A DNA stretch of 64,000 bases, from positions 10,168,001-10,232,000 of the forward strand of contig NC_086097.1 of assembly GCF_963921235.1 (NCBI RefSeq), given 5' to 3'. Positions 19,932 to 63,535 of this stretch are shown here, one piece after another. The notes beneath the pieces are model-generated. The model saw nothing but the letters and a program-made list of their open reading frames with translations. It did no database searches and was not told the origin of the DNA. This DNA is from Mobula hypostoma. Its lineage: Eukaryota. The position numbers were made by a program, and so were the translations under genes. Position 1 is the stretch's first letter. Each line of letters opens with the position of its first letter.

Positions 19932-20630
19932 TATGTCACCAAATACAAGCTTGGGATTTATTTTCCTGTGTGCAATCACAGTAAATACTAGTTGAATTGA
20001 ATTGAATTGACTTTATTTCTTACATTCTTCACATACATGAGGAGTAAATATCTTTACGTTACGTCTCTGTCTAACTGTGCAATGTGAAATTTATAGTAAT
20101 TTGAATAAATCATATGTACAACAGGACAGTCAATATAGCATGGAAATACAATTGTATCAGTGTGAATTAATCAGTCTGATGGCCTGGTGGAAGAAGCTGT
20201 TCCATAGCCTGTTGGTCTTGGCTTTTAAGCCCTTTCCTGGATGGTAGCAGCTGGAACAATTTGTGGTTTGAACACAATCGAATCAATGAAAAACTACACA
20301 CAAAGGCAGACAACCAACCAAAGATGGACAAATACAAGTATCTCTCACTCCACATTTCTTCCTGATTCAACTGCAATGCAGAAACAGATAATTTAATTGT
20401 CCACTAACCTTCTAGTAACATGCCATCTGGCCTTAGATACCAGTCCTTAATGTCCCCGCAAGAACTTTGAAAGCACTCTGCCACACCAATTTAATTACAC
20501 TTTCCCACACTTTCTGATGGCAAGTAAGGATGGTTAGTAATCAAAAATAACTTTGTTAATGATTATTCTTAATGTGCTAGAATTTCAAAATCTGTAATAA
20601 TTTGCTTTTGATTCCCACTGCTCTCCATGA

Positions 20631-20888
20631 AGATCAATTCCCGCCATTTTCTGTAAGGATCAATTCCCCTCATTGTTTTTTTATCAATTCCAGCCGTTGT
20701 CTGTAAGGATCAGTTCCCACCATTGTCTGTAAGGGTCACGTCTCACAGTTATCTCCAAGAATCAATTCCCACCGTTTTCTGTAAGGTTCAATTCCCACTG
20801 TTTTGTGTAGGGATCAATTCCCGCCACTATCTTCAAGAATCGATTCCCGCCATTATCTCCAAGGATCAATTCCCACCGTTTTCTGTAA
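20631..20888 (+). repeat. Minisatellite, 10 x 26 bp (consensus GGATCAATTCCCACCGTTTTCTGTAA), derived from a SINE B-box
   Basis: Units start at 20631, 20657, ~20681, 20707, 20733, 20759, 20785, 20811, 20837 and 20863; the last unit runs directly into a SINE body. Confidence 0.9.
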
Positions 20889-21128
20889 GGAGTCTGCACA
20901 TTCGCTCTATGATCATGCAGATTTCCTCTGAATGCTCTGGTTTCCTCCCATATTTCAAAAACGTATGGGTTAGGGTTAGTAAGTTGAGTAGACACTGGAA
21001 GCATGGTGACTTACAGTCTGCCCTCCAGTACATATTCAGACAGTGTTGGTCATAGCTGCCGATGATGTATTTCTGTGTATGCTTCGACATTTGTTATGAA
21101 TGTCATCAATAAAGCTAATCTTTATCTT
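20889..21128 (+). mobile_element. tRNA-derived SINE body
   Basis: ggagtctgcacattc...atttcctctgaatgctctggtttcctcccatatttcaaaaacgta...aataaagctaatctt; homologous to 29720-29800 and 37640-37830. Confidence 0.75.
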
Positions 21129-24634: not shown

Positions 24635-24799
24635 CGCAAACAACAGGAATTCTGCAGATGCTGGAAATTCAAGCAACACCCATCAAAGTTGCTGGTGAAC
24701 GCAGCAGGCCAGGCAGCATCTCTAGGAAGAGGTGCAGTCGACGTTTCAGGCCGAGATGCTGCCTGGCCTGCTGCGTTCACCAGCAACTTTGATGTGTGT
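24635..24799. mobile_element. Penelope-like terminal fragment with internal inversion and 14-bp TSD
   Basis: tgcaataatctagt at 24621-24634 and 24800-24813; inverted arms 24673-24722 and 24753-24802 (49/50 match). Confidence 0.9.
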
Positions 24800-24825
24800 T
24801 GCAATAATCTAGTACTGGTTTTCAG

Positions 24826-40004: not shown

Positions 40005-40372
40005 TTTGACAAGAGGAACCCGCTCCCTGGTTTGGTGGCAGGAGGATCAGGTGAGTGCAGATGTGCACGAAACGGAAGCGATGTGGTGGAGGACAGCATT
40101 GATGGTGGAGGAAGGGAAGCTCCTTTCTTTGAAGAAGGAGAACATCACCTTAGTTCTGGAATGAAAAGCCTCAACCTAAGTGCAGATGTGGCAGAGACAC
40201 AGGAATTGAGAGAAGGGGATGTCATTTTCACAAGTAACAGAGTGGGAAGAGGTACAGTCCAGGTAGTTGTGAGAATCAATGGGTTTATAATAGACATCAG
40301 TAGATAAGCTGTCTCCAGAGATAGAGACAGAGAGATCAGAAAGAGGAGGAAGTTGTCAGAAATGGATCAGGA
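40005..40372 (-). mobile_element. Penelope-like element RT C-terminal coding fragment
   Basis: Minus-strand translation DLSVSISGDSLSTDVYYKPIDSHNYLDCTSSH...IPFSQFL...AFHSRT...FFKERSFP matches the PLE RT thumb pattern (YxKPT..H.YL...SSHP...IP.SQF.R). Confidence 0.85.
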
Positions 40373-41489: not shown

Positions 41490-44400
41490 GAATAGGCTCA
41501 AACAGTAAATGCAGCAAATGTAGAGGTAGGCACATCCCAAAGAAATGCTTATGGAAAGTCCAGCAATAATTGTGGGAAGAAGAATCACTTTGCAAAGTGC
41601 TGCAAAGCTACCAAGAGAATGGTGCACATGGTTGCAAAGAAAATCGAGGAAACCTTTGTGGATTCTCTACAGACTGCTGGTGCTGGTAAAACAGAATGGA
41701 TTGTTCCAGTGACGGTGAATGAGACAGTAATTCCATTCAAACTTGACAGTGGAGCCCAGGTGAATTTGTTATCAGTGGACGATTGCAAAGCTTTCAAAGT
41801 AAAGAGCAAGATTTACCCAGTGAAGTTAACAGTGGAGAGAATGTTCCAGTAAAAGGGGACCTTCAAGCACAAGGGGCAGCAGCTAAAGGCAGAGCTACTG
41901 ATTGTAGAAAAGGAAGTATCGCCAATATTTGATCTGAGTGGATGTGAAAAGCACAACTTGGTGAAAAGTGTTTTCATTGCATCCTCATAGACCAAAGATA
42001 ATTACACTTCACACTTGGAAGAGTATGCAAATATCTTTGATGGGTTCAGATGGTTACCTGGTGTACTCAAAATCCATGTAGATGAGACAGCAGCTCCTGT
42101 TGTTCATGCATGCAGGGAAGTTCCATTTGTACTTAGAGACAAACTTAAACAAGAACTAGCACGCATGGAATGTATAAACGTCATACAGAAAATTGAAGAA
42201 CTATCAGATTGGGTGAGCACACTGGTCAGTGTGCAAAAGGAAAATGGAGCATTGGCAGTACACCAACAGATCTCAATAAATCCATTAAGAGAGAACATTT
42301 TAAATTGACAGCACAGGAGAAGATCATGTCCGGGTTTGCAGGGTCCAAGTGGTTTAGCAAATTCAAAGCATCATCTGGGTTTTAGCAGATGAAGATTGAT
42401 GAGGCACATTCAAGACGGTGCACTTTTAATACACCAGAGGGTAAATATTGCTTTCTTCAGTTACCTTATGCGATCCAGTCCATACCAGAGGTCTACCATA
42501 AAACCATCAACCTGATCTTTGAGGGCATACCTGGTGTCAAGACCATGATGGATAACATCATTTTCTGGGGCCCACCAAGGACGAACATGATGCATGACTG
42601 AGACAGATGCTGAATGTGGCGCAGAAAGTCAATTTGAAATTAAACGAAGACAAATGTGAGTTTGGTCATACGAAAGCTCATACCAGAAGAGGAAGAAAAG
42701 CCTGACCCAAGAAAGACGTCAGCCTTTGAGAACATAGAGAGGCCCCAAAACAAAAAGGAGGAGAGACACTTCCTGGGGCTGGTGACTTTCCGGGCTAATT
42801 TTATACCTTGACGATCCACTGTGTCAGCAACACATAGGTCATTCCTTAAGCAGCGAAATGAGTGGATTTGGTCTCAGGAGCAAGAAAGGTGTTTCCAGAG
42901 GCTGAAAGGAATCCTAACTGAAGTGCCAATGCTGAAGTTTTATGATCAGGAGAGGTGTACTGCAATCTTAGCTGAATGGCCTTGGAGTCAAGTCAAGTCA
43001 CTTGTTATTGTCATTTCGACCATAACTGCTGGTACAGTACACAGTAAGAATGAGACAACGTTTTCCAGGACCATGGTGCTACATGAAACAATACAAAAAC
43101 TACGCTGAACTATGTAAAACAACACAAAACTACACTAGACTACAGACCTACCCAGGACTGCATAAGGTGCACAAAACAGTTCAGGCATTACAATAAATAA
43201 TAAACAAGACAATAGGCACAGTAGAGGGCAGTAGGTTGGTGTCAGTCCAGGCTCTGGGTATTGAGGAGTCTGATGGCTTGGGGGAAGAAACTATTACATA
43301 GTCTGGTCGTGAGAGCCCGAATGCTTCGGTGCCTTTTGCCAGATGGCAGGAGGGAGAAGAGTTTGTATGAGGGGTGTGTGAGGTCCTTCATAATGCTGTT
43401 CGCTTTACAGATGCAGCGTGTGGCGTAAATGTCTATAATGGCGGGAAGATAGACCCTGATGATCTTCTCAGCTGACCTCACTATCCGCTGCAGGGTGTTG
43501 TGATCCGAGATGGGGCAATTTCTGAACCAGGCAGTGATGCAGCTGCTCAGGATGCTCTCAATACAACCTCTGTAGAATGTGGTGAGGATGGGGGGTGGGA
43601 GATGGACTTTTCTCAGCCTTTGCAGAAAGTAGAGACGCTGCTGGGCTTTCTTTGCTATGGAGCTGGTGTTGAGGGACCAGGTGAGATTCTCCACCAGGTG
43701 AACACCAAGAAACTTAATGCACTTAACGATCTCTACGGAGGAGTCATCGATGTTCAGCGGAGAGTGGTTGCTCCGTGTCCTCCTGAAGTCAACAACCATC
43801 TCTCTTGTTTTGTTCATATTCAGAGACAGGTTGTTGGCTCTGCACCAGTCCGTTAGCTGCTGCACCTCCTCTCTGTATGCTGACTCATCCTTCTTGCTGA
43901 TGAGACCCACCACGGTCGTGTCATTGGCGAATTTGATGATGTGGTTTGAGTTGTGTGTTGCAGCACAGTCGTGGGTCAGCAGAGTGAACAGCAGTGGACT
44001 GAGCACACAGCCCTGGGGGGCCCCCATGCTCAGTGTGATGGTGTTGGAGATGCTGCTTCCAATCCGGACTGACTGAGGTCTCCTAGTCAGGAAGTCTAGG
44101 ATCCAGTTACAGAGGGAGGTGTTCAGGCCCAGTAGGCTCAGCTTTCCAATCAGTTTCTGAGGAATGATTGTGTTGAATGCTGAACTGAAGTCCATGAACA
44201 GCATTCGAACATACGTGTCTTTTTTGTCCAGGTGGATTAGGGCCAGGTGGAGGGTGATGGCAATGGGATTGTCTGTTGAACGGTTGGGACGGTACGCAAA
44301 CTGCAGGTGGTCCAGTGAGGGGGGCAGCAGGGTCTTGAAGTGCTTCATGACGAGCCTCTCGAAACACTTCATGATGATGGATGTGAGTGCGACGGGACGG

Positions 44401-46683
44401 TAGTCGTTGAGGCAGGACACTGAAGACTTCTTCAGCACGGGGACGATGGTGGCGGCCTTGAAGCACGTAGGAACGATAGTGCTGCTCAGGGAGATGTTGA
44501 AGATGTCAGTGAGAATCTCTGCTAGCTGATCTGCACATCCTCTAAGCACTCTGCCAGGAATATTTTCTGGTCCAGCAGCCTTCCGTGGGTTGACCCTGCA
44601 CAGGGTTCTCCGGCCATGGTAAGACACAGCACTTGGTCATTTGGAGGAGGGGTGGTCTTCCTCGCCGCCACGTCATTTTCCACCTCAAAGCGAGCGTTGA
44701 AGTTGTTCAATGCATCTGGGAGGGAGGCATCACCAGCACAGGCAGGTGGTGTTGTCAGGAGCTGTACTACTGCAGCACCGTGATGACATATGGCACGCTG
44801 TGGCCAATGCATCAAGGACTTTAACAAGTCTGGAAGCTAACTATGCATAAATAGAGAAAGAGCTTCTTTCCAGCACATATGCATGCAAAGGGTTCCATCA
44901 GTATATCTATGGACAGGCTTTTAAAGTAGAGACAGAGTAGAAGCTACTGGTCTCAATTATGTCCAAACCACTGAATGACTGTCCTATGCAGATATGGCTT
45001 TTCAGGTGGAGACAGACATAAACCACTGAATGACTGTCTCATGAGGATACAACACATGTTGATAAGGCTGCAGAAATATGATGTGAAGATGACCTTCACA
45101 CCAGTAAAATATATGTTTGCTGCTGATGCGTTGTCTCAAGCAGTTAACAAGAAAGAAAAGAGTGACCAAGAGATCGATGTGGATAATCAGGCCAATACTG
45201 ACACGATTTTTGCCTCCATTCCAATATCTCCTAACAGAACAGAAAAGATTAGGACAGCAGCAAGGACAGGTGAAACAATGAAAGCACTCAAAGAGACAAT
45301 ACAGAACGGATAGCCAGCTGCAAAGAACAACTATTTAATGTGTATTTGGGGTCATTGTGCATGCAGAGCTGAACTGTCAGTAGTAAAAGATATGGACTTC
45401 AAAGGGATCAGATTTGTAATTCGAGTGTCGCTATGCAAGGAAGTGCTCCTGATGATACATGAAGGGCATCTTGATGAGGAAAAATACAAACGTAGAGCTT
45501 GGGAAGTGACATATTGGTCGAGAATGAACTAAGACATCAGTCAGACTATTGCTTCATATGAGATTGTCTTACTTACAGACTAAAACAGCAAGCAGAACCA
45601 CTTACACTACACCCTGTACCAGACAGACTGTACTTGAAAGTTGGAGTGGACTTGTTTGATTGTACTGGGAAGAGTCATATTGTTGTAACAGACTACTTTT
45701 CCAATTACACAGAGATTATAGCACTGCAATCAACATCCAGCAAAGTGGTCATCACCGTTCTGAAAGCCGTGTTTGCAAAGCACGGAGTTCCATGTGGAGT
45801 GGTAACAGACAATGGTCTACAATTCGAGCTATTAATTTGAGTCCTTTACCAATGATTGAGGGTTTCAACATATAAGTTCAAGTCCACACCACCAAAAATC
45901 TAATGGGCTAGAAGAGAATTGGGTTAAGGCAGTGAAGGGTCTCATGAAGAATGGGCAAGAAGATTTCCACGAACGTTTGATGATTTACATAACTGCGCCA
46001 CTGCATAATGGCCTTTCACCAGCCCGATGGGTTGACACATAAGCACTAGCATTCCAGTGCGTGAAAACCTGTTGACACCTCAAGAAGCACACCAGGTCAA
46101 TCTGACCAAAGTAAAGGGGAAGGAGAAACAGAAACAGTGCCCCAACAAGATGGTGAATAGTCTACCAGTCCTGAAGACTGGGGATCAATTGCACATCGGA
46201 GATCACAATTCATGATCTATGCAAGGATATGAGCAAGAGGAAGTTGCTCCACGCTCCTGGCAGATCCAGATGGAGCAAGGAACACCTCTGAGAAGGAATG
46301 ATGTGGATCTCCAGCCATGAGCTCAGGTGCATAACCATGACACATCACCTCTCAGTCCACCAAAGGGGCCTGCAGATGTAAAGAATGAACTTGTTGATCA
46401 GAATTCTCAGACTGACACAACTATTAATGCACCAATTACAAGCAATACAGCTGTGGAAAAATATAGCAGACCAAAAAGGTCATTAAATCACATTACAGAC
46501 TGATTGAGAGTTGACAAGTGCATAAGGGAGTGAATTTGATCATTACAATTGTAGTTAATATCAATATCAATGTTGGAAAGCTCATTACAATTGAAGTTAA
46601 TGTAACTATCTTCATTGGAAAGCATTATTGTTTTTTGCAGGCTTATGAGGACATAAGTGTGTGTTTGCTTTAAAGAGGGAAGA
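41490..46683 (+). mobile_element. Gypsy/Ty3 LTR retrotransposon: gag knuckle, protease, RT, RNase H and integrase, all disrupted
   Basis: CGKKNHFAKCC knuckle (~41570-41603), FKLDSGAQVNLL, RCTFNTPEGKYCFLQLPY...MMDNII (decayed YxDD), GLG|AVLLQ, ADALS, IHEGHL, VGVDLF...VVTDYFS, VTDNG; PPT aaagagggaaga at 46672-46683. Confidence 0.92.
42988..44757 (-). mobile_element. Rex1/Babar-like LINE, 5'-truncated, long open RT ORF (43242-44627), inserted in the Gypsy RNase H
   Basis: 461-aa ORF with [42 protein letters not shown]; (tcaag)n tail; ggag on both flanks (42984-42987 and 44758-44761). Confidence 0.95.
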
Positions 46684-50690: not shown

Positions 50691-50954
50691 TTTTTCTTCA
50701 TTTAGCGTGTCGCAGCGGACAGTCAGCCAGTCTTGTCTGGCGTGTGGTGTCAGGATTGGTCTCCTTTCGGATTAACCGGGTCACGATATGAACGTTCCTG
50801 ACTCGACCCTTTTTTTTACGAGGCCGAGTGGCTAGCTCGACGCTCAACCCAGCACGGATGGAAAGCGTGCTCGGGGGGTGGCCCGACTTGGATTCGAACT
50901 CGGGAGCCTTCGCTCCTGAGTCCAGCGCTAATGCCATTGCGCCACCAGCCGGCC
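50691..50954 (-). mobile_element. Young, CpG-rich tRNA-derived SINE
   Basis: Minus strand GGCCGGCTGGTGGCGCAATGG (A box)...GAGTTCGAATCC (B box), then a non-tRNA body and A tail. Flanks ttctaaggagat (50679-50690) and ttctagagagat (50958-50969) form an imperfect TSD. Confidence 0.85.
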
Positions 50955-60333: not shown

Positions 60334-60785
60334 GTAAGCATATTGCAGAATTGTGTAAGAGTAATAAAGTTATGGTAATGAGGTTTTTTAAGTACCAAAT
60401 ATTGATTAGTGCAAGGGGTTTGGATAAATAAATAAAGTTCATCCAAGGAAAGAACAATATGTTGAGAGTTTAACAAGAGAGAGGCAGTTCTTGACCTTGT
60501 CTTTGAAAATGAAATTGGATGTCTGGTAGATAACTAGAACATATAGAGTATCAGTCAAATACAACCACACAGAATATACATATATATATAGTCCAGGCTC
60601 CTCAGCAATGTTCCCTCTAATTTTTAGTAGTCAGTGTACACAAAAATCTTATGTTGTACTATTTTTTTTCCTGTGACAGAAGTATATGAGCGCTGAATGC
60701 ACATGTGGGACAGTTTATGTAGGCTTACAAAATATTTGACACAAAACTGCACAGAATAACAACAAAATAACACACATATTTAAAT

Positions 60786-61249
60786 CACACACACAAAAAA
60801 TGCTTGTGAACACAGCAGGCCAGGCAGCATCCATAGGAAGAGGTGCAGTCAACGTTTCGGGCTGAGACCCTTCATCAGGACTAACTGAAAGAAGAGATAA
60901 TAAGAGATTTGAAAGTGCGAGGGGGAGGGAGGGATCCAAAATGATTGGAGAAGACAGGAGGGGGCGGGATGGAGCTAAAAGCTGGAAAGTTGATTGGCAA
61001 AAAGGATACGAGGTTGGAGAAGGGAGAGGATCATGGGACGGGAGGCCTGGGGAGAGAGAAGGGTGGGGGGAGGCCCAGAGGATGGGCAAGGAGTTATAGT
61101 GAGAGGGACAGAGGGAGAAAAAAGAGATAAAAAAGGGGAAAGAAAAAAACAATAATAATAATAATGAATAAATAAGGGATGGGGTACGAAGGGGAGTAGG
61201 GGCATTAACGGAAGATAGAGATGTCAATGTTCATGCCATCAGGTTGGAG
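60786..61249 (-). mobile_element. Penelope-like element 3' fragment inserted in the hAT element
   Basis: TSD atatttaa at 60776-60783 and 61250-61257. The minus strand starts with LQPDGMNID, the GIY-YIG endonuclease C-terminal LxPxGxN motif of PLEs. Confidence 0.88.
60846..60883 (-). ncRNA. Minimal type-I hammerhead ribozyme motif
   Basis: Minus strand UAGUC-CUGAUGA-A-GGGU(CUCA)GCCC-GAAA-CG-UU-GACUG: stem I UAGUC/GACUG, intact CUGAUGA and GAAA boxes, palindromic ACGU stem III, GUU triplet. Confidence 0.75.
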
Positions 61250-63535
61250 ATATTTAATTTTTATCATATTTAAGTCACTCAGTTACTTTTTCTCTCTCCT
61301 GTCCTTGGCATTTACCCATTCTTTGTAAGCTCTATCTCGACTAATAGAACTTCCATCCCATTGATAGCCTTTGATTCTCATTAACATATCCAAATGACAT
61401 TCACCTAAACAGTTTCCCAGCTTGTTTTTGAGTTGATTCATTAGGGTAAAACCTCGTTCATAGTCTGCACTAGACGCAAGGAAGGTTCCCCAATGTCCAT
61501 CAACTGTGCAAGGTCGCAGAACTGTTCATCTTGAAGTACAAGTGCCACCATTTGAGCAAAGTTTGAAATCGGTTTGGATTTAATTTTTTCTTACACAGAA
61601 AATTTGAAATCATTAAACTGTCTAACTATTACAATATTTTCAACTAGAAAATAATGATATTTTAGACATAAGGCATTAACTTGTTCATCGCCAAATGTGA
61701 AGTCACAATCTGCAATTGTGGAGAAATCAAAAGCTGACCATTCTTGAACCTCAACTTTGATCTCCTCTGGGTTTGATCGTTTTCGCTCTCGCTCATCTGC
61801 ACTCAACCGTAACATGCGTAGCGCTCCTGTAACGGGTAACGACGGGTTCTGTTGCCTGAGCTTTTGTACACCATCCAAATGCGATTTACTTGCCAAATTT
61901 TGCTTCAAAAAGTCAAGTTTCCAAATATCATCCCACTTCTTTCCACTAACAAATTCTCCAGCAACTTTTGCATCACAACAATACAAACAGATACTCCAGT
62001 TTCCAAATCGTACATAAATATTTCTCGTAGCTGAACGTTCATGACCTCATGAGCTTTCGGTGTAACAGTTTCTACTATTTTGTTCAGCCATTCAACTTTA
62101 AACAAACTTGCAGTTCTTTTGTGCTTCACGCCCTTCGCTTTTTTTGAATTCGACATAGTGAATCAACATTTTTTTCCAATAAAAACTTAATAAGCCATCT
62201 ACAGGCTTTGAAACAGATCTTTGCAAACTTTACGATATGAACACTGTCCGCGAAACATGATTGCCACCATGATGCAGCTGTACAAACCAGAACAGGATAG
62301 GTGAGGTGATGTAAATTAGTGACATGCTTTGTGGTATTAGAAAAAACGACTAACTAGTTAACAGAAACAGTTAGCTAAAAGATTATTTTCAGTAAGTATA
62401 ATTATTAACTACTACATTATTTTAGGTAACTAACCTTTTGTATGCACATTAATTTCCTTTGTGCACTGGTTGAAAAACGTGTGTGCGCACGCATACGCGT
62501 ACAGCTTAGCGGGAACTATGCTCCCCAGATCATCAAAATCTTTAAGCGACCACAATAGAGACCATCTCCCACCGTCCAGCCTGGACAGTGTTTTGATATC
62601 CCGTGATACTCTGTAAAGATATCGACAGCAAGATGTTATATAGGGAAAGAAAGATTGCTCTTTAAAACCAAAGGGGTAAGCAATGTGTTTAGCCAGGCAA
62701 ATTAACTCTCATCAGTAATGTTAAGTTCAGTGAGGGGTATATGGGTACCTAAAGCAGGTCATTATGAAGAAGGAGGAGATGTTGGATGTCATAGTTTGCA
62801 TAAGGATCAAATAGGATCTATTCCAGACTGCTTTTGGAAGCAAGGCTGGAGAGAGCTGAGGCCCTGACGGGGAACGTTTGCATTTTCACTAACCATGGTG
62901 CAATGCCAGAAGTCTGGAAGTTCGCTAAAGTTATTACTTTATCCTCATCTTAACAAAACACTGGCTAGGATATATGTACTTGGACAATGTTGAGCAGTAC
63001 TGGTTACCACACCTTTGGAAAGTGCAGACGAGATTTGTGAGGATGTTGCCTAGATCGGGGAACTTTAGCTCTGAGGGAGGCTTATTTTCTGAAAGGAGAG
63101 ATGAGAATGTGTTCAAGCCTGTAACAATAAAGTTTGCTCCCCTTTCCCATTTTGATGAAGAGTTAACTCCCTAAGATATTAACTCTGTTTCTTGCTTCAC
63201 AAGCGGTGTCTAACTTGCTAAGTGTCCTCCAGCAGTTTCTGATATTTTTTATTGTGCTTCTAGGGTGGATGAAGAATGGACACAACTTTAATAAGGGAGA
63301 GGCAAAGGATGATTGCACAATAGGAGTATCAGGCCTGGGACTGGATAACAGCTTCTTCCCCCACACTGCGAGACTAGTAAATACCCTGCCACCACCGAGG
63401 TCTCGTCACCAGGAAGCCGGCTGTTTACTGTTACTGTACCAGAGTCAGGTTGTTTGTCAGAATCAGAAACACAATCAGGTTTAATATCTCTGGCAAATGT
63501 CATGAAATTTATATATATATATATATATATATATA

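What the first reader, a model, noticed from the sequence alone, without database searches (positions are those of the whole stretch)
60846..60883. Intact minimal hammerhead ribozyme in the terminal repeat of an abundant Penelope-like element
Seen in sequence: the minus strand reads UAGUC CUGAUGA A GGGU-CUCA-GCCC GAAA CG UU GACUG. This gives a 5-bp stem I, both catalytic boxes, a 4-bp stem II, and a stem III reduced to the palindrome ACGU. The copy at 24735-24755 preserves the likely ancestral GAAACGUC-GACUG (GUC triplet). Established knowledge: PLEs carry minimal type-I hammerheads in their pseudo-LTRs, and hammerheads with a palindromic short stem III cleave efficiently as dimers. PLE identity is independently supported by the LQPDGMNID endonuclease end (61220-61249) and the RT fragment at 40005-40372. 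Inference: with about ten family fragments in 64 kb, this genome may hold very many ribozyme motifs, and some could cut host pre-mRNA. I do not know whether this family's ribozyme has been characterised.
Basis: partly seen in the sequence, partly recalled or inferred. Interest (0 to 1): 0.72.

Follow-up and report, generated by a model that had tools for sequence, protein, structure and literature searches.

The report
Penelope hammerhead hitchhiking in hAT transposon
The self-cutting RNA motif is real and of a known kind, but this copy is a mutated scrap of a Penelope-type jumping gene that was carried here inside a cut-and-paste DNA transposon, and it is likely an inert passenger among about 86,000 similar motifs in this genome.

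Summary
The motif at 60846-60883 (minus strand) is as described and is not chance. It is the known minimal hammerhead of Penelope-like elements (PLEs). Its family is Neptune-type, with open-frame copies elsewhere, and 86,221 genomic sites keep the core pattern. (1) This copy is not intact: it has three CpG transitions, one turning the GUC site into GUU (3,273 GUU against 49,156 GUC sites). (2) It did not arrive here by retrotransposition. The 460-bp PLE tail sits inside a 1.9-kb non-autonomous hAT DNA transposon (60606-62520; terminal inverted repeats, 8-bp target duplication). At least 167 copies share the junction, and empty sisters exist. In 35 such copies the catalytic core decays at the backbone rate. 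(3) Papers report low or protein-dependent cleavage, not efficient dimer cleavage. No host exon was found in the window, and expression could not be tested. The scan has reported this PLE family before in this genome, and similar hitchhiking in other genomes; this hAT carrier was not in its index. Ordinary; low interest.

The parts
60846..60883 (-). Minimal type-I hammerhead motif; predicted cleavage after 60851 (GUU; the family has GUC); three CpG transitions at 60874, 60863, 60851
   Evidence: sequence; descriptor; differences from 29 relatives
60789..61249 (-). 5'-truncated, tail-less 3' end of a Neptune-type PLE: last endonuclease codons (LQPDGMNID...FR*), pyrimidine-rich 3' UTR, pseudo-LTR with the hammerhead
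   Evidence: 78.7% identical to the open-frame copy L106; translation; ends
61265..61278 (.). First copy of the 14-bp target duplication made by the PLE insertion; 15 non-PLE filler bases lie at 61250-61264
   Evidence: direct repeat D13; empty sisters have this 14-mer once
60775..60788 (.). Second copy of the 14-bp PLE target duplication (one substitution)
60606..62520 (-). Non-autonomous hAT DNA transposon, 1,915 bp, carrying the PLE tail
   Evidence: ends, repeats and target duplications in this and related copies
60606..60620 (+). Terminal inverted repeat of the hAT element, about 15 bp
62506..62520 (-). Other terminal inverted repeat (imperfect)
60598..60605 (.). 8-bp hAT target duplication, left copy (7 of 8 identical to the right copy)
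62521..62528 (.). 8-bp hAT target duplication, right copy
61283..62156 (-). Internally deleted hAT transposase remnant (about residues 1-135 joined to about 504-659 of a 659-aa relative); in three broken pieces in this copy; its stop codon lies about 33 bases before the PLE fragment, on the same strand
40008..40371 (-). Separate RT-region fragment of the same PLE family (residues 697-809 of the L106 frame); not part of this insertion
24635..24802 (.). Separate young fold-back PLE scrap with the GUC site but without the CUGANGA box

Best explanation
This is a CpG-decayed minimal hammerhead from the pseudo-LTR of a Neptune-type Penelope-like element, sitting inside a non-autonomous hAT transposon that has at least 167 copies with the same junction, and it is likely an inert passenger here. 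History: one truncated PLE 3' end inserted just behind the transposase remnant of a 1.42-kb hAT deletion derivative and duplicated 14 bp (shown by the empty sisters). The filled 1.9-kb form was then copied by cut-and-paste to about 200 sites, each with its own 8-bp duplication (shown). A transposase supplied in trans is inferred; no autonomous partner was found. Function in the source PLE (inferred from the motif and the literature): two motifs pair through the ACGU palindrome to form stem III and cut after GUC, likely only when the element's protein refolds an otherwise locked hairpin. In this copy the site is GUU, no second motif passes the descriptor in the window, and nothing shows transcription, so little or no cleavage is predicted.
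For: 19 of 29 nearest relatives share both flanks of the PLE fragment. 43 of 47 loci examined have both terminal repeats, and 38 of those 43 have 6 or more of 8 target-duplication bases matching; two of the 43 are duplicates. Of 20 loci picked by carrier DNA alone, 9 are filled, 9 empty and 2 lack an end. The junction pattern has 167 matches at up to 2 mismatches, about 200 after correction for divergence. The carrier frame is 79-85% identical to both ends of a 659-aa protein whose relatives carry hAT domains. In 35 filled copies the 11 core bases change at the backbone rate (non-CpG 9/311 = 0.029 against 0.028; CpG 12/70 = 0.17 against 0.185), and only 6 of 35 still pass the descriptor, 5 with GUC. 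The transposase remnant also drifts (omega about 0.95; 4 of 35 open). The source family has RT, a CX4CxxC linker and GIY-YIG in one frame followed by the motif, and a tandem pseudo-LTR/ORF junction. Across four lineage majorities the motif is 90% alike while the next 15 columns are 52% alike. ViennaRNA folds GUC monomers into a rod that buries the core (open-core probability below 0.001), in line with protein-assisted cleavage in PMC11167929.
Against: No cleavage or expression data exist for this copy or family. GUU is still an NUH triplet (PMC3138052 lists it as cleavable; that it is slower than GUC is recalled, not checked). The decay weakens the locking helix: open-core probability is 0.11 for the bare 38-mer, so some activity in trans is not excluded. 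The tree of carrier sequence is star-like and does not itself separate filled from empty copies; single origin rests on the identical junction and five near-diagnostic columns. Stem variation across 209 copies is one-sided only, with no two-sided compensatory change, and Rfam gives no hammerhead hit. Thirty-five copies give limited power against weak selection. Pfam scores for RT and GIY-YIG are below the curated cut-offs.
Confidence: 0.85

Rival explanations
1. One reading: an intact, active PLE ribozyme that can cut host pre-mRNA at this locus, pairing with another copy.
For: All core bases and both stems are present. With 86,221 core-pattern sites, partners in long transcripts or in trans would be plentiful.
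Against: GUU site and two more CpG changes; no second descriptor hit in the window; no host exon found; low or protein-dependent activity in print (PMC4209133, PMC6765202, PMC11167929). Genome-wide, the catalysis-killing G8A change is not in excess over the neutral C7U change (1,565 against 2,601), so there is no sign that the host favours dead copies.
Confidence: 0.07
2. The hAT derivative uses the captured hammerhead: lying on the sense strand just behind the transposase remnant, it would cut that transcript and so help the filled form spread, for example by silencing a truncated repressor-like protein.
For: Same strand and 3'-UTR position; the deletion is in frame (291-aa majority frame); the filled form did amplify to about 200 copies with the motif complete in its majority sequence.
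Against: Empty sisters of the same deletion family spread too. Cut-and-paste needs no RNA intermediate. Motif and frame both decay neutrally after insertion, although this does not test selection on the donor copies during the burst.
Confidence: 0.05
3. The conserved 37-base island in the PLE is kept mainly as a protein-binding, promoter or transcript-start signal, and self-cleavage is vestigial in the whole family.
For: In anole, ribozyme mutants did not change insertion in vitro and no RNA-seq reads ended at the site (PMC11167929). Here 7 of 19 young fragments begin within 9 bases of the motif's 5' edge and none at the cleavage site. A second, downstream box is about as conserved (84%).
Against: The island matches the hammerhead core base for base, and loose ends in contigs of four organisms fall at the stem I borders. 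Lineage variants keep pairing (G-C to G-U, U-G to C-G or U-A). This rival concerns the family and is compatible with the passenger reading of this copy.
Confidence: 0.2

Closest known systems
Minimal hammerheads (min-HHR) of metazoan PLEs, including Xena, Poseidon and Neptune of fishes (Cervera and de la Pena 2014, PMC4209133; parts 1-2 of 4 of the main text read, supplements not seen)
   Same: Core boxes, unpaired base between positions 9 and 10.1, G10.1-C11.1, 4-5 bp helix I, palindromic 15.2-16.2 in place of helix III, place in the pseudo-LTR, mostly lone truncated copies.
   Different: Copy number: 86,221 core-pattern sites here against about 4,000 (coelacanth) and 9,000 (Xenopus tropicalis) there, by different search methods. 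This copy has GUU and rides in a hAT element.
Small PLE hammerhead variants that cleave as dimers (Lunse, Weinberg and Breaker 2016, PMC5785218; not held, seen only as a title and through passages of PMC6765202 and PMC6466107)
   Same: Shrunken palindromic stem III; predicted dimer.
   Different: I could not see whether this family is among their alignments or was assayed.
Poseidon element of Anolis (PAc; Frangieh et al. 2024, PMC11167929; parts 1-2 of 4 read)
   Same: RT plus C-terminal GIY-YIG, hammerhead in the pseudo-LTR, two classes of 3' end about 30-40 bases apart.
   Different: This family has the CX4CxxC linker of Neptune/Nematis, and its ORF appears to start about 135 bases past the cleavage site (L109) rather than inside the ribozyme.
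Neptune clade of endonuclease-bearing PLEs (Craig et al. 2021, PMC8557442; passages read)
   Same: Domain order, zinc-finger linker, tandem and inverted insertions, optional tail, hammerhead in the pseudo-LTR.
   Different: No tree against Neptune and Nematis references was built.
Non-autonomous hAT deletion derivatives (Ds-type; general knowledge plus the abstract start of PMC3260210)
   Same: Short terminal inverted repeats, 8-bp target duplications, internally deleted transposase.
   Different: One sub-lineage carries a retroelement tail with a ribozyme motif as cargo.
Animal non-LTR retrozymes (bioRxiv 10.64898/2026.07.22.740005; part 1, passages and Discussion read)
   Same: Type-I hammerhead of PLE origin in a non-coding repeat.
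   Different: Retrozymes are tandem arrays thought to move through RNA; this is a single motif moved as DNA.

Membership tests
min-HHR of PLEs | CUGANGA and GAAA boxes with U16.1 | tested here: met
min-HHR of PLEs | Unpaired base between 9 and 10.1; G10.1-C11.1 | tested here: met
   A in 201 of 209 copies
min-HHR of PLEs | Palindromic 15.2-16.2, no helix III; helix I of 4-5 bp | tested here: met
min-HHR of PLEs | NUH cleavage triplet | tested here: met
   GUU in this copy; C17 in 175 of 209 copies; 49,156 GUC against 3,273 GUU
min-HHR of PLEs | Located in the pseudo-LTR of a PLE | tested here: met
   L106 and L109
min-HHR of PLEs | Compensatory changes in the stems | tested here: inconclusive
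   only one-sided, pairing-compatible changes and CpG decay in 209 copies
min-HHR of PLEs | Self-cleavage as a dimer or with protein | not testable with these tools
   no raw RNA reads; folding only
Canonical type-I hammerhead (Rfam models) | Match to an Rfam hammerhead family; true helix III | tested here: not met
   no hammerhead among 5 matches at E<=1
Neptune-type PLE | One ORF with RT and C-terminal GIY-YIG | tested here: met
   L106, 1,010-aa open frame; Pfam RVT_1 E=1e-5 and GIY-YIG E=6e-4, both under curated cut-offs
Neptune-type PLE | CX2-5CxxC linker between RT and endonuclease | tested here: met
   CX4CxxC read in the L106 frame; shared with Nematis according to PMC8557442
Neptune-type PLE | Tandem and inverted insertion structure | tested here: met
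   L106, L107, L109, L111
Neptune-type PLE | Phylogenetic placement in Neptune rather than Nematis | not tested
hAT DNA transposon (non-autonomous) | Short terminal inverted repeats and 8-bp target duplication | tested here: met
hAT DNA transposon (non-autonomous) | Homology to a hAT transposase | tested here: met
   relatives with PF14291 and PF05699; the remnant itself has no Pfam hit
hAT DNA transposon (autonomous) | Full-length transposase | tested here: not met
   about 370 central residues missing; longest open frame among 150 scored genome hits is 382 aa
Non-LTR retrozyme | Tandem units each with a hammerhead | tested here: not met
   single motif; no second descriptor hit in the window

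The most novel reading that the evidence does not exclude
This genome carries one of the largest loads of core-intact hammerheads reported for a vertebrate (86,221 sites, about one per 40 kb). Whenever the PLE protein is expressed it would switch on cleavage of many host transcripts at once, and the 1.66-fold excess of a neutral over a catalysis-killing mutation at one CpG would be the footprint of selection for a working ribozyme in copies that pass through RNA, absent from the hAT-borne copies (5 against 5), which move as DNA.
Probability: 0.08. Interest if true: 0.6.

Novelty: new member of a known kind. Interest (0 to 1): 0.2.

Why it matters
The kind is known, so the locus itself matters little. 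Two by-products have some use. The hAT-borne copies are a natural control: about 200 copies of one ribozyme that multiplied without an RNA step and show what neutral decay of the motif looks like. And the family is very large and still has open-frame tandem copies, which makes the open question of whether PLE hammerheads cut in vivo easy to test in this organism once stranded RNA end-sequencing is available.

Tried and rejected
Rfam scan: no hammerhead family matched; the miRNA hits at 24674-24801 are the fold-back scrap. Box-only pattern: not above chance. PDB search with the PLE frame: 0 matches. Pfam on the three transposase pieces and on the 295-aa frame of L208: no meaningful hit; the identity came from longer homologues. 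Direct PLE insertion at this site: rejected. Selection on the motif or on the truncated transposase within the carrier: not seen. Pile-up of copy ends at the cleavage site: not seen, 0 of 19. The excess of C7U over G8A is not explained by trinucleotide context (ACG/TCG rate ratio 1.08, p=0.44) nor by a visible C7U sub-lineage among 20 + 20 copies read by eye; it remains unexplained. Autonomous hAT partner: none among 150 scored hits of 1,631 candidates or in 20 fetched loci. Nearest-neighbour energies do not favour the active dimer over inactive folds for any of three copies; the model lacks core tertiary energy, so this is weak. Literature: six searches (listings and abstract starts only) showed no paper on this family's ribozyme or on a hAT-borne hammerhead; Lunse 2016 and the supplements of PMC4209133 were not seen and may cover the family.

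Full report
Observation. The minus strand at 60883-60846 holds the motif as described: stem I of five pairs, CUGAUGA, one extra A, a four-pair stem II, GAAA, the palindrome ACGU and the triplet GUU. The boxes alone are common (4 seen, 2.18 expected). A descriptor that also demands both stems, the palindrome and NUH finds only this site in the window, 12 sites in 600 kb of evenly spaced genome stretches (10 GUC, 2 GUU, all of this family) and 1 in 6 Mb of Markov control. Rfam has no matching hammerhead model.

The family. The window is G000:C1:10168001-10232000 of a 3.48-Gb genome. A search with the RT fragment gave copies with long open frames. L106 has a 1,010-aa frame with RT (YIDD), a CX4CxxC linker, GIY-YIG and the same LQPDGMNID end, followed by the 3' UTR and the hammerhead. 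L109 shows the tandem junction in which the pseudo-LTR runs into the next frame, and several loci show the inverted partner typical of PLEs. By the features listed in PMC8557442 (passages read) this is a Neptune-type element; no tree was built to exclude Nematis. Exact counts: 49,156 sites for a tight GUC pattern, 3,273 for the same pattern with GUU, and 86,221 for a looser pattern with the whole core, G10.1-Y11.1, the palindrome and NUH; all reversed controls gave 0. The descriptor sample extrapolates to about 70,000 (36,000-121,000), and 115 pseudo-LTR fragments in 600 kb to roughly 670,000 fragments. Among 209 near-complete rows of 309 hits, four lineage majorities (131, 25, 14 and 8 copies) are 90% alike in the motif, 52% in the next 15 columns and 84% in a downstream box; the upstream columns mostly do not align. 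Contigs of four coded organisms show loose ends at the two borders of stem I. Stem changes keep pairing but are one-sided; no two-sided change was seen. So the structure rests on identity with the known core and on conservation, not on covariation.

This copy is decayed. Against the majority of its 29 nearest relatives it differs at 41 of 632 columns, three of them in the motif, all CpG transitions: position 7, the last base of loop 2, and the cleavage-site C17. The partner change at that last CpG (G1.1A) is about as common genome-wide (3,863) as C17U, as expected of deamination.

It came here inside a DNA transposon. In 19 of those 29 relatives the similarity runs on past both ends of the PLE fragment. 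The larger unit spans 60606-62520, has 15-bp terminal inverted repeats and an 8-bp target duplication. Of 47 loci examined, 43 had both ends and 38 of these had at least 6 of 8 duplicated bases, different at each site (two loci are duplicates). Among 20 loci picked by carrier DNA only, 9 carry the PLE tail, 9 are empty 1.42-kb sisters with the 14-bp target once, and 2 lack an end; this pick favours relatives of the window copy, so it is no estimate of the true ratio. The carrier-PLE junction occurs 167 times at up to two mismatches, about 200 after correction. The carrier's frame is an in-frame deletion of a hAT transposase: it keeps about residues 1-135 and 504-659 of a 659-aa relative at 85% and 79% identity, and relatives carry PF14291 and PF05699. 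The PLE tail lies on the same strand, just behind the stop codon. A tree of 52 elements (seven rows dropped as duplicates, refetched or mis-ended) is star-like and does not resolve filled from empty; two rows labelled filled were unrelated PLE insertions in another deletion family. Five columns nearly separate 35 filled from 11 empty copies, which with the shared junction points to one capture.

No sign of use in the carrier. In 35 filled copies the core changes at the backbone rate at both CpG and other sites, and 6 of 35 still pass the descriptor. The truncated frame has omega near 0.95 with 30 stop-making changes. That this copy kept its boxes is therefore luck, and it was noticed because it did.

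How the motif likely works in the source element. From PMC4209133 (parts 1-2 read): single minimal motifs showed no cleavage and dimers only low cleavage. PMC6765202 (passages) says the same. PMC11167929 (parts 1-2 read) found cleavage only with the element's protein, no effect of ribozyme mutants on insertion in vitro, and no reads ending at the site. ViennaRNA folds the GUC monomers here into a rod in which the first box pairs with the palindrome and cleavage site (open-core probability below 0.001; 0.11 for the window's decayed 38-mer). I infer a locked monomer that the PLE protein opens so that two motifs can share stem III through ACGU. Cleavage itself was not tested.

Host pre-mRNA. A Pfam scan of the 150 longest of 225 non-repeat frames found only a Gypsy-type remnant and no convincing host exon; this does not exclude a long intron. 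No RNA holder was listed. At the C7-G8 CpG the neutral change outnumbers the lethal one 2,601 to 1,565, the opposite of what host selection against active motifs would give. Context does not explain the excess, no sub-lineage was visible, and in the carrier it is 5 to 5. It is unexplained and is the basis of the novel case.

Novelty. A new member of a known kind. Six literature searches showed nothing on this family or on hAT-borne hammerheads, but the most relevant paper (PMC5785218) was not available. The scan's own notes already cover this PLE family in this genome and hitchhiking in other DNA transposons of other genomes; the carrier sequence had no look-alike in the index.

Noticed in passing
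window 50749-50822 (-), with 50830-50950 upstream: Weak Rfam match to the HDV-like CPEB3 ribozyme (22.9 bits, E=0.12, below gathering). By eye the P1, P2, P3 and P4 strands pair. It follows directly on a tRNA-like SINE head and an A-run; no second copy of the fold was found in the fetched loci.
   Followed up: partly
genome-wide, C7-G8 CpG of the hammerhead core: Neutral C7U outnumbers lethal G8A 1.66-fold on the same background; not explained by context or by a visible sub-lineage.
   Followed up: partly
random sample L086-L105, L126-L165: 7 of 19 young PLE fragments begin within 9 bases of the 5' edge of the hammerhead and none at the cleavage site; 3' ends fall in two groups about 35 bases apart.
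   Followed up: partly
L106 3805-6837; L107; L109 7100-10000: PLE copies with long open frames and 98-99% identical inverted or tandem partners suggest recent activity; L109 gives the pseudo-LTR/ORF junction.
   Followed up: partly
family-wide, pair 10.1-11.1: The youngest, most common lineage has G-U in place of the usual G-C at the base of stem II (109 against 86 of 209 rows).
   Followed up: no
L218, L219, L222, L225, L231, L233: A second deletion family of the same hAT transposon, which differs from this one over about 61760-62170.
   Followed up: no
window 41496-45837 (+): Decayed Gypsy-type LTR retrotransposon pieces: protease, RNase H, integrase.
   Followed up: no
window 20611-20916: Minisatellite of 26-bp period.
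   Followed up: no
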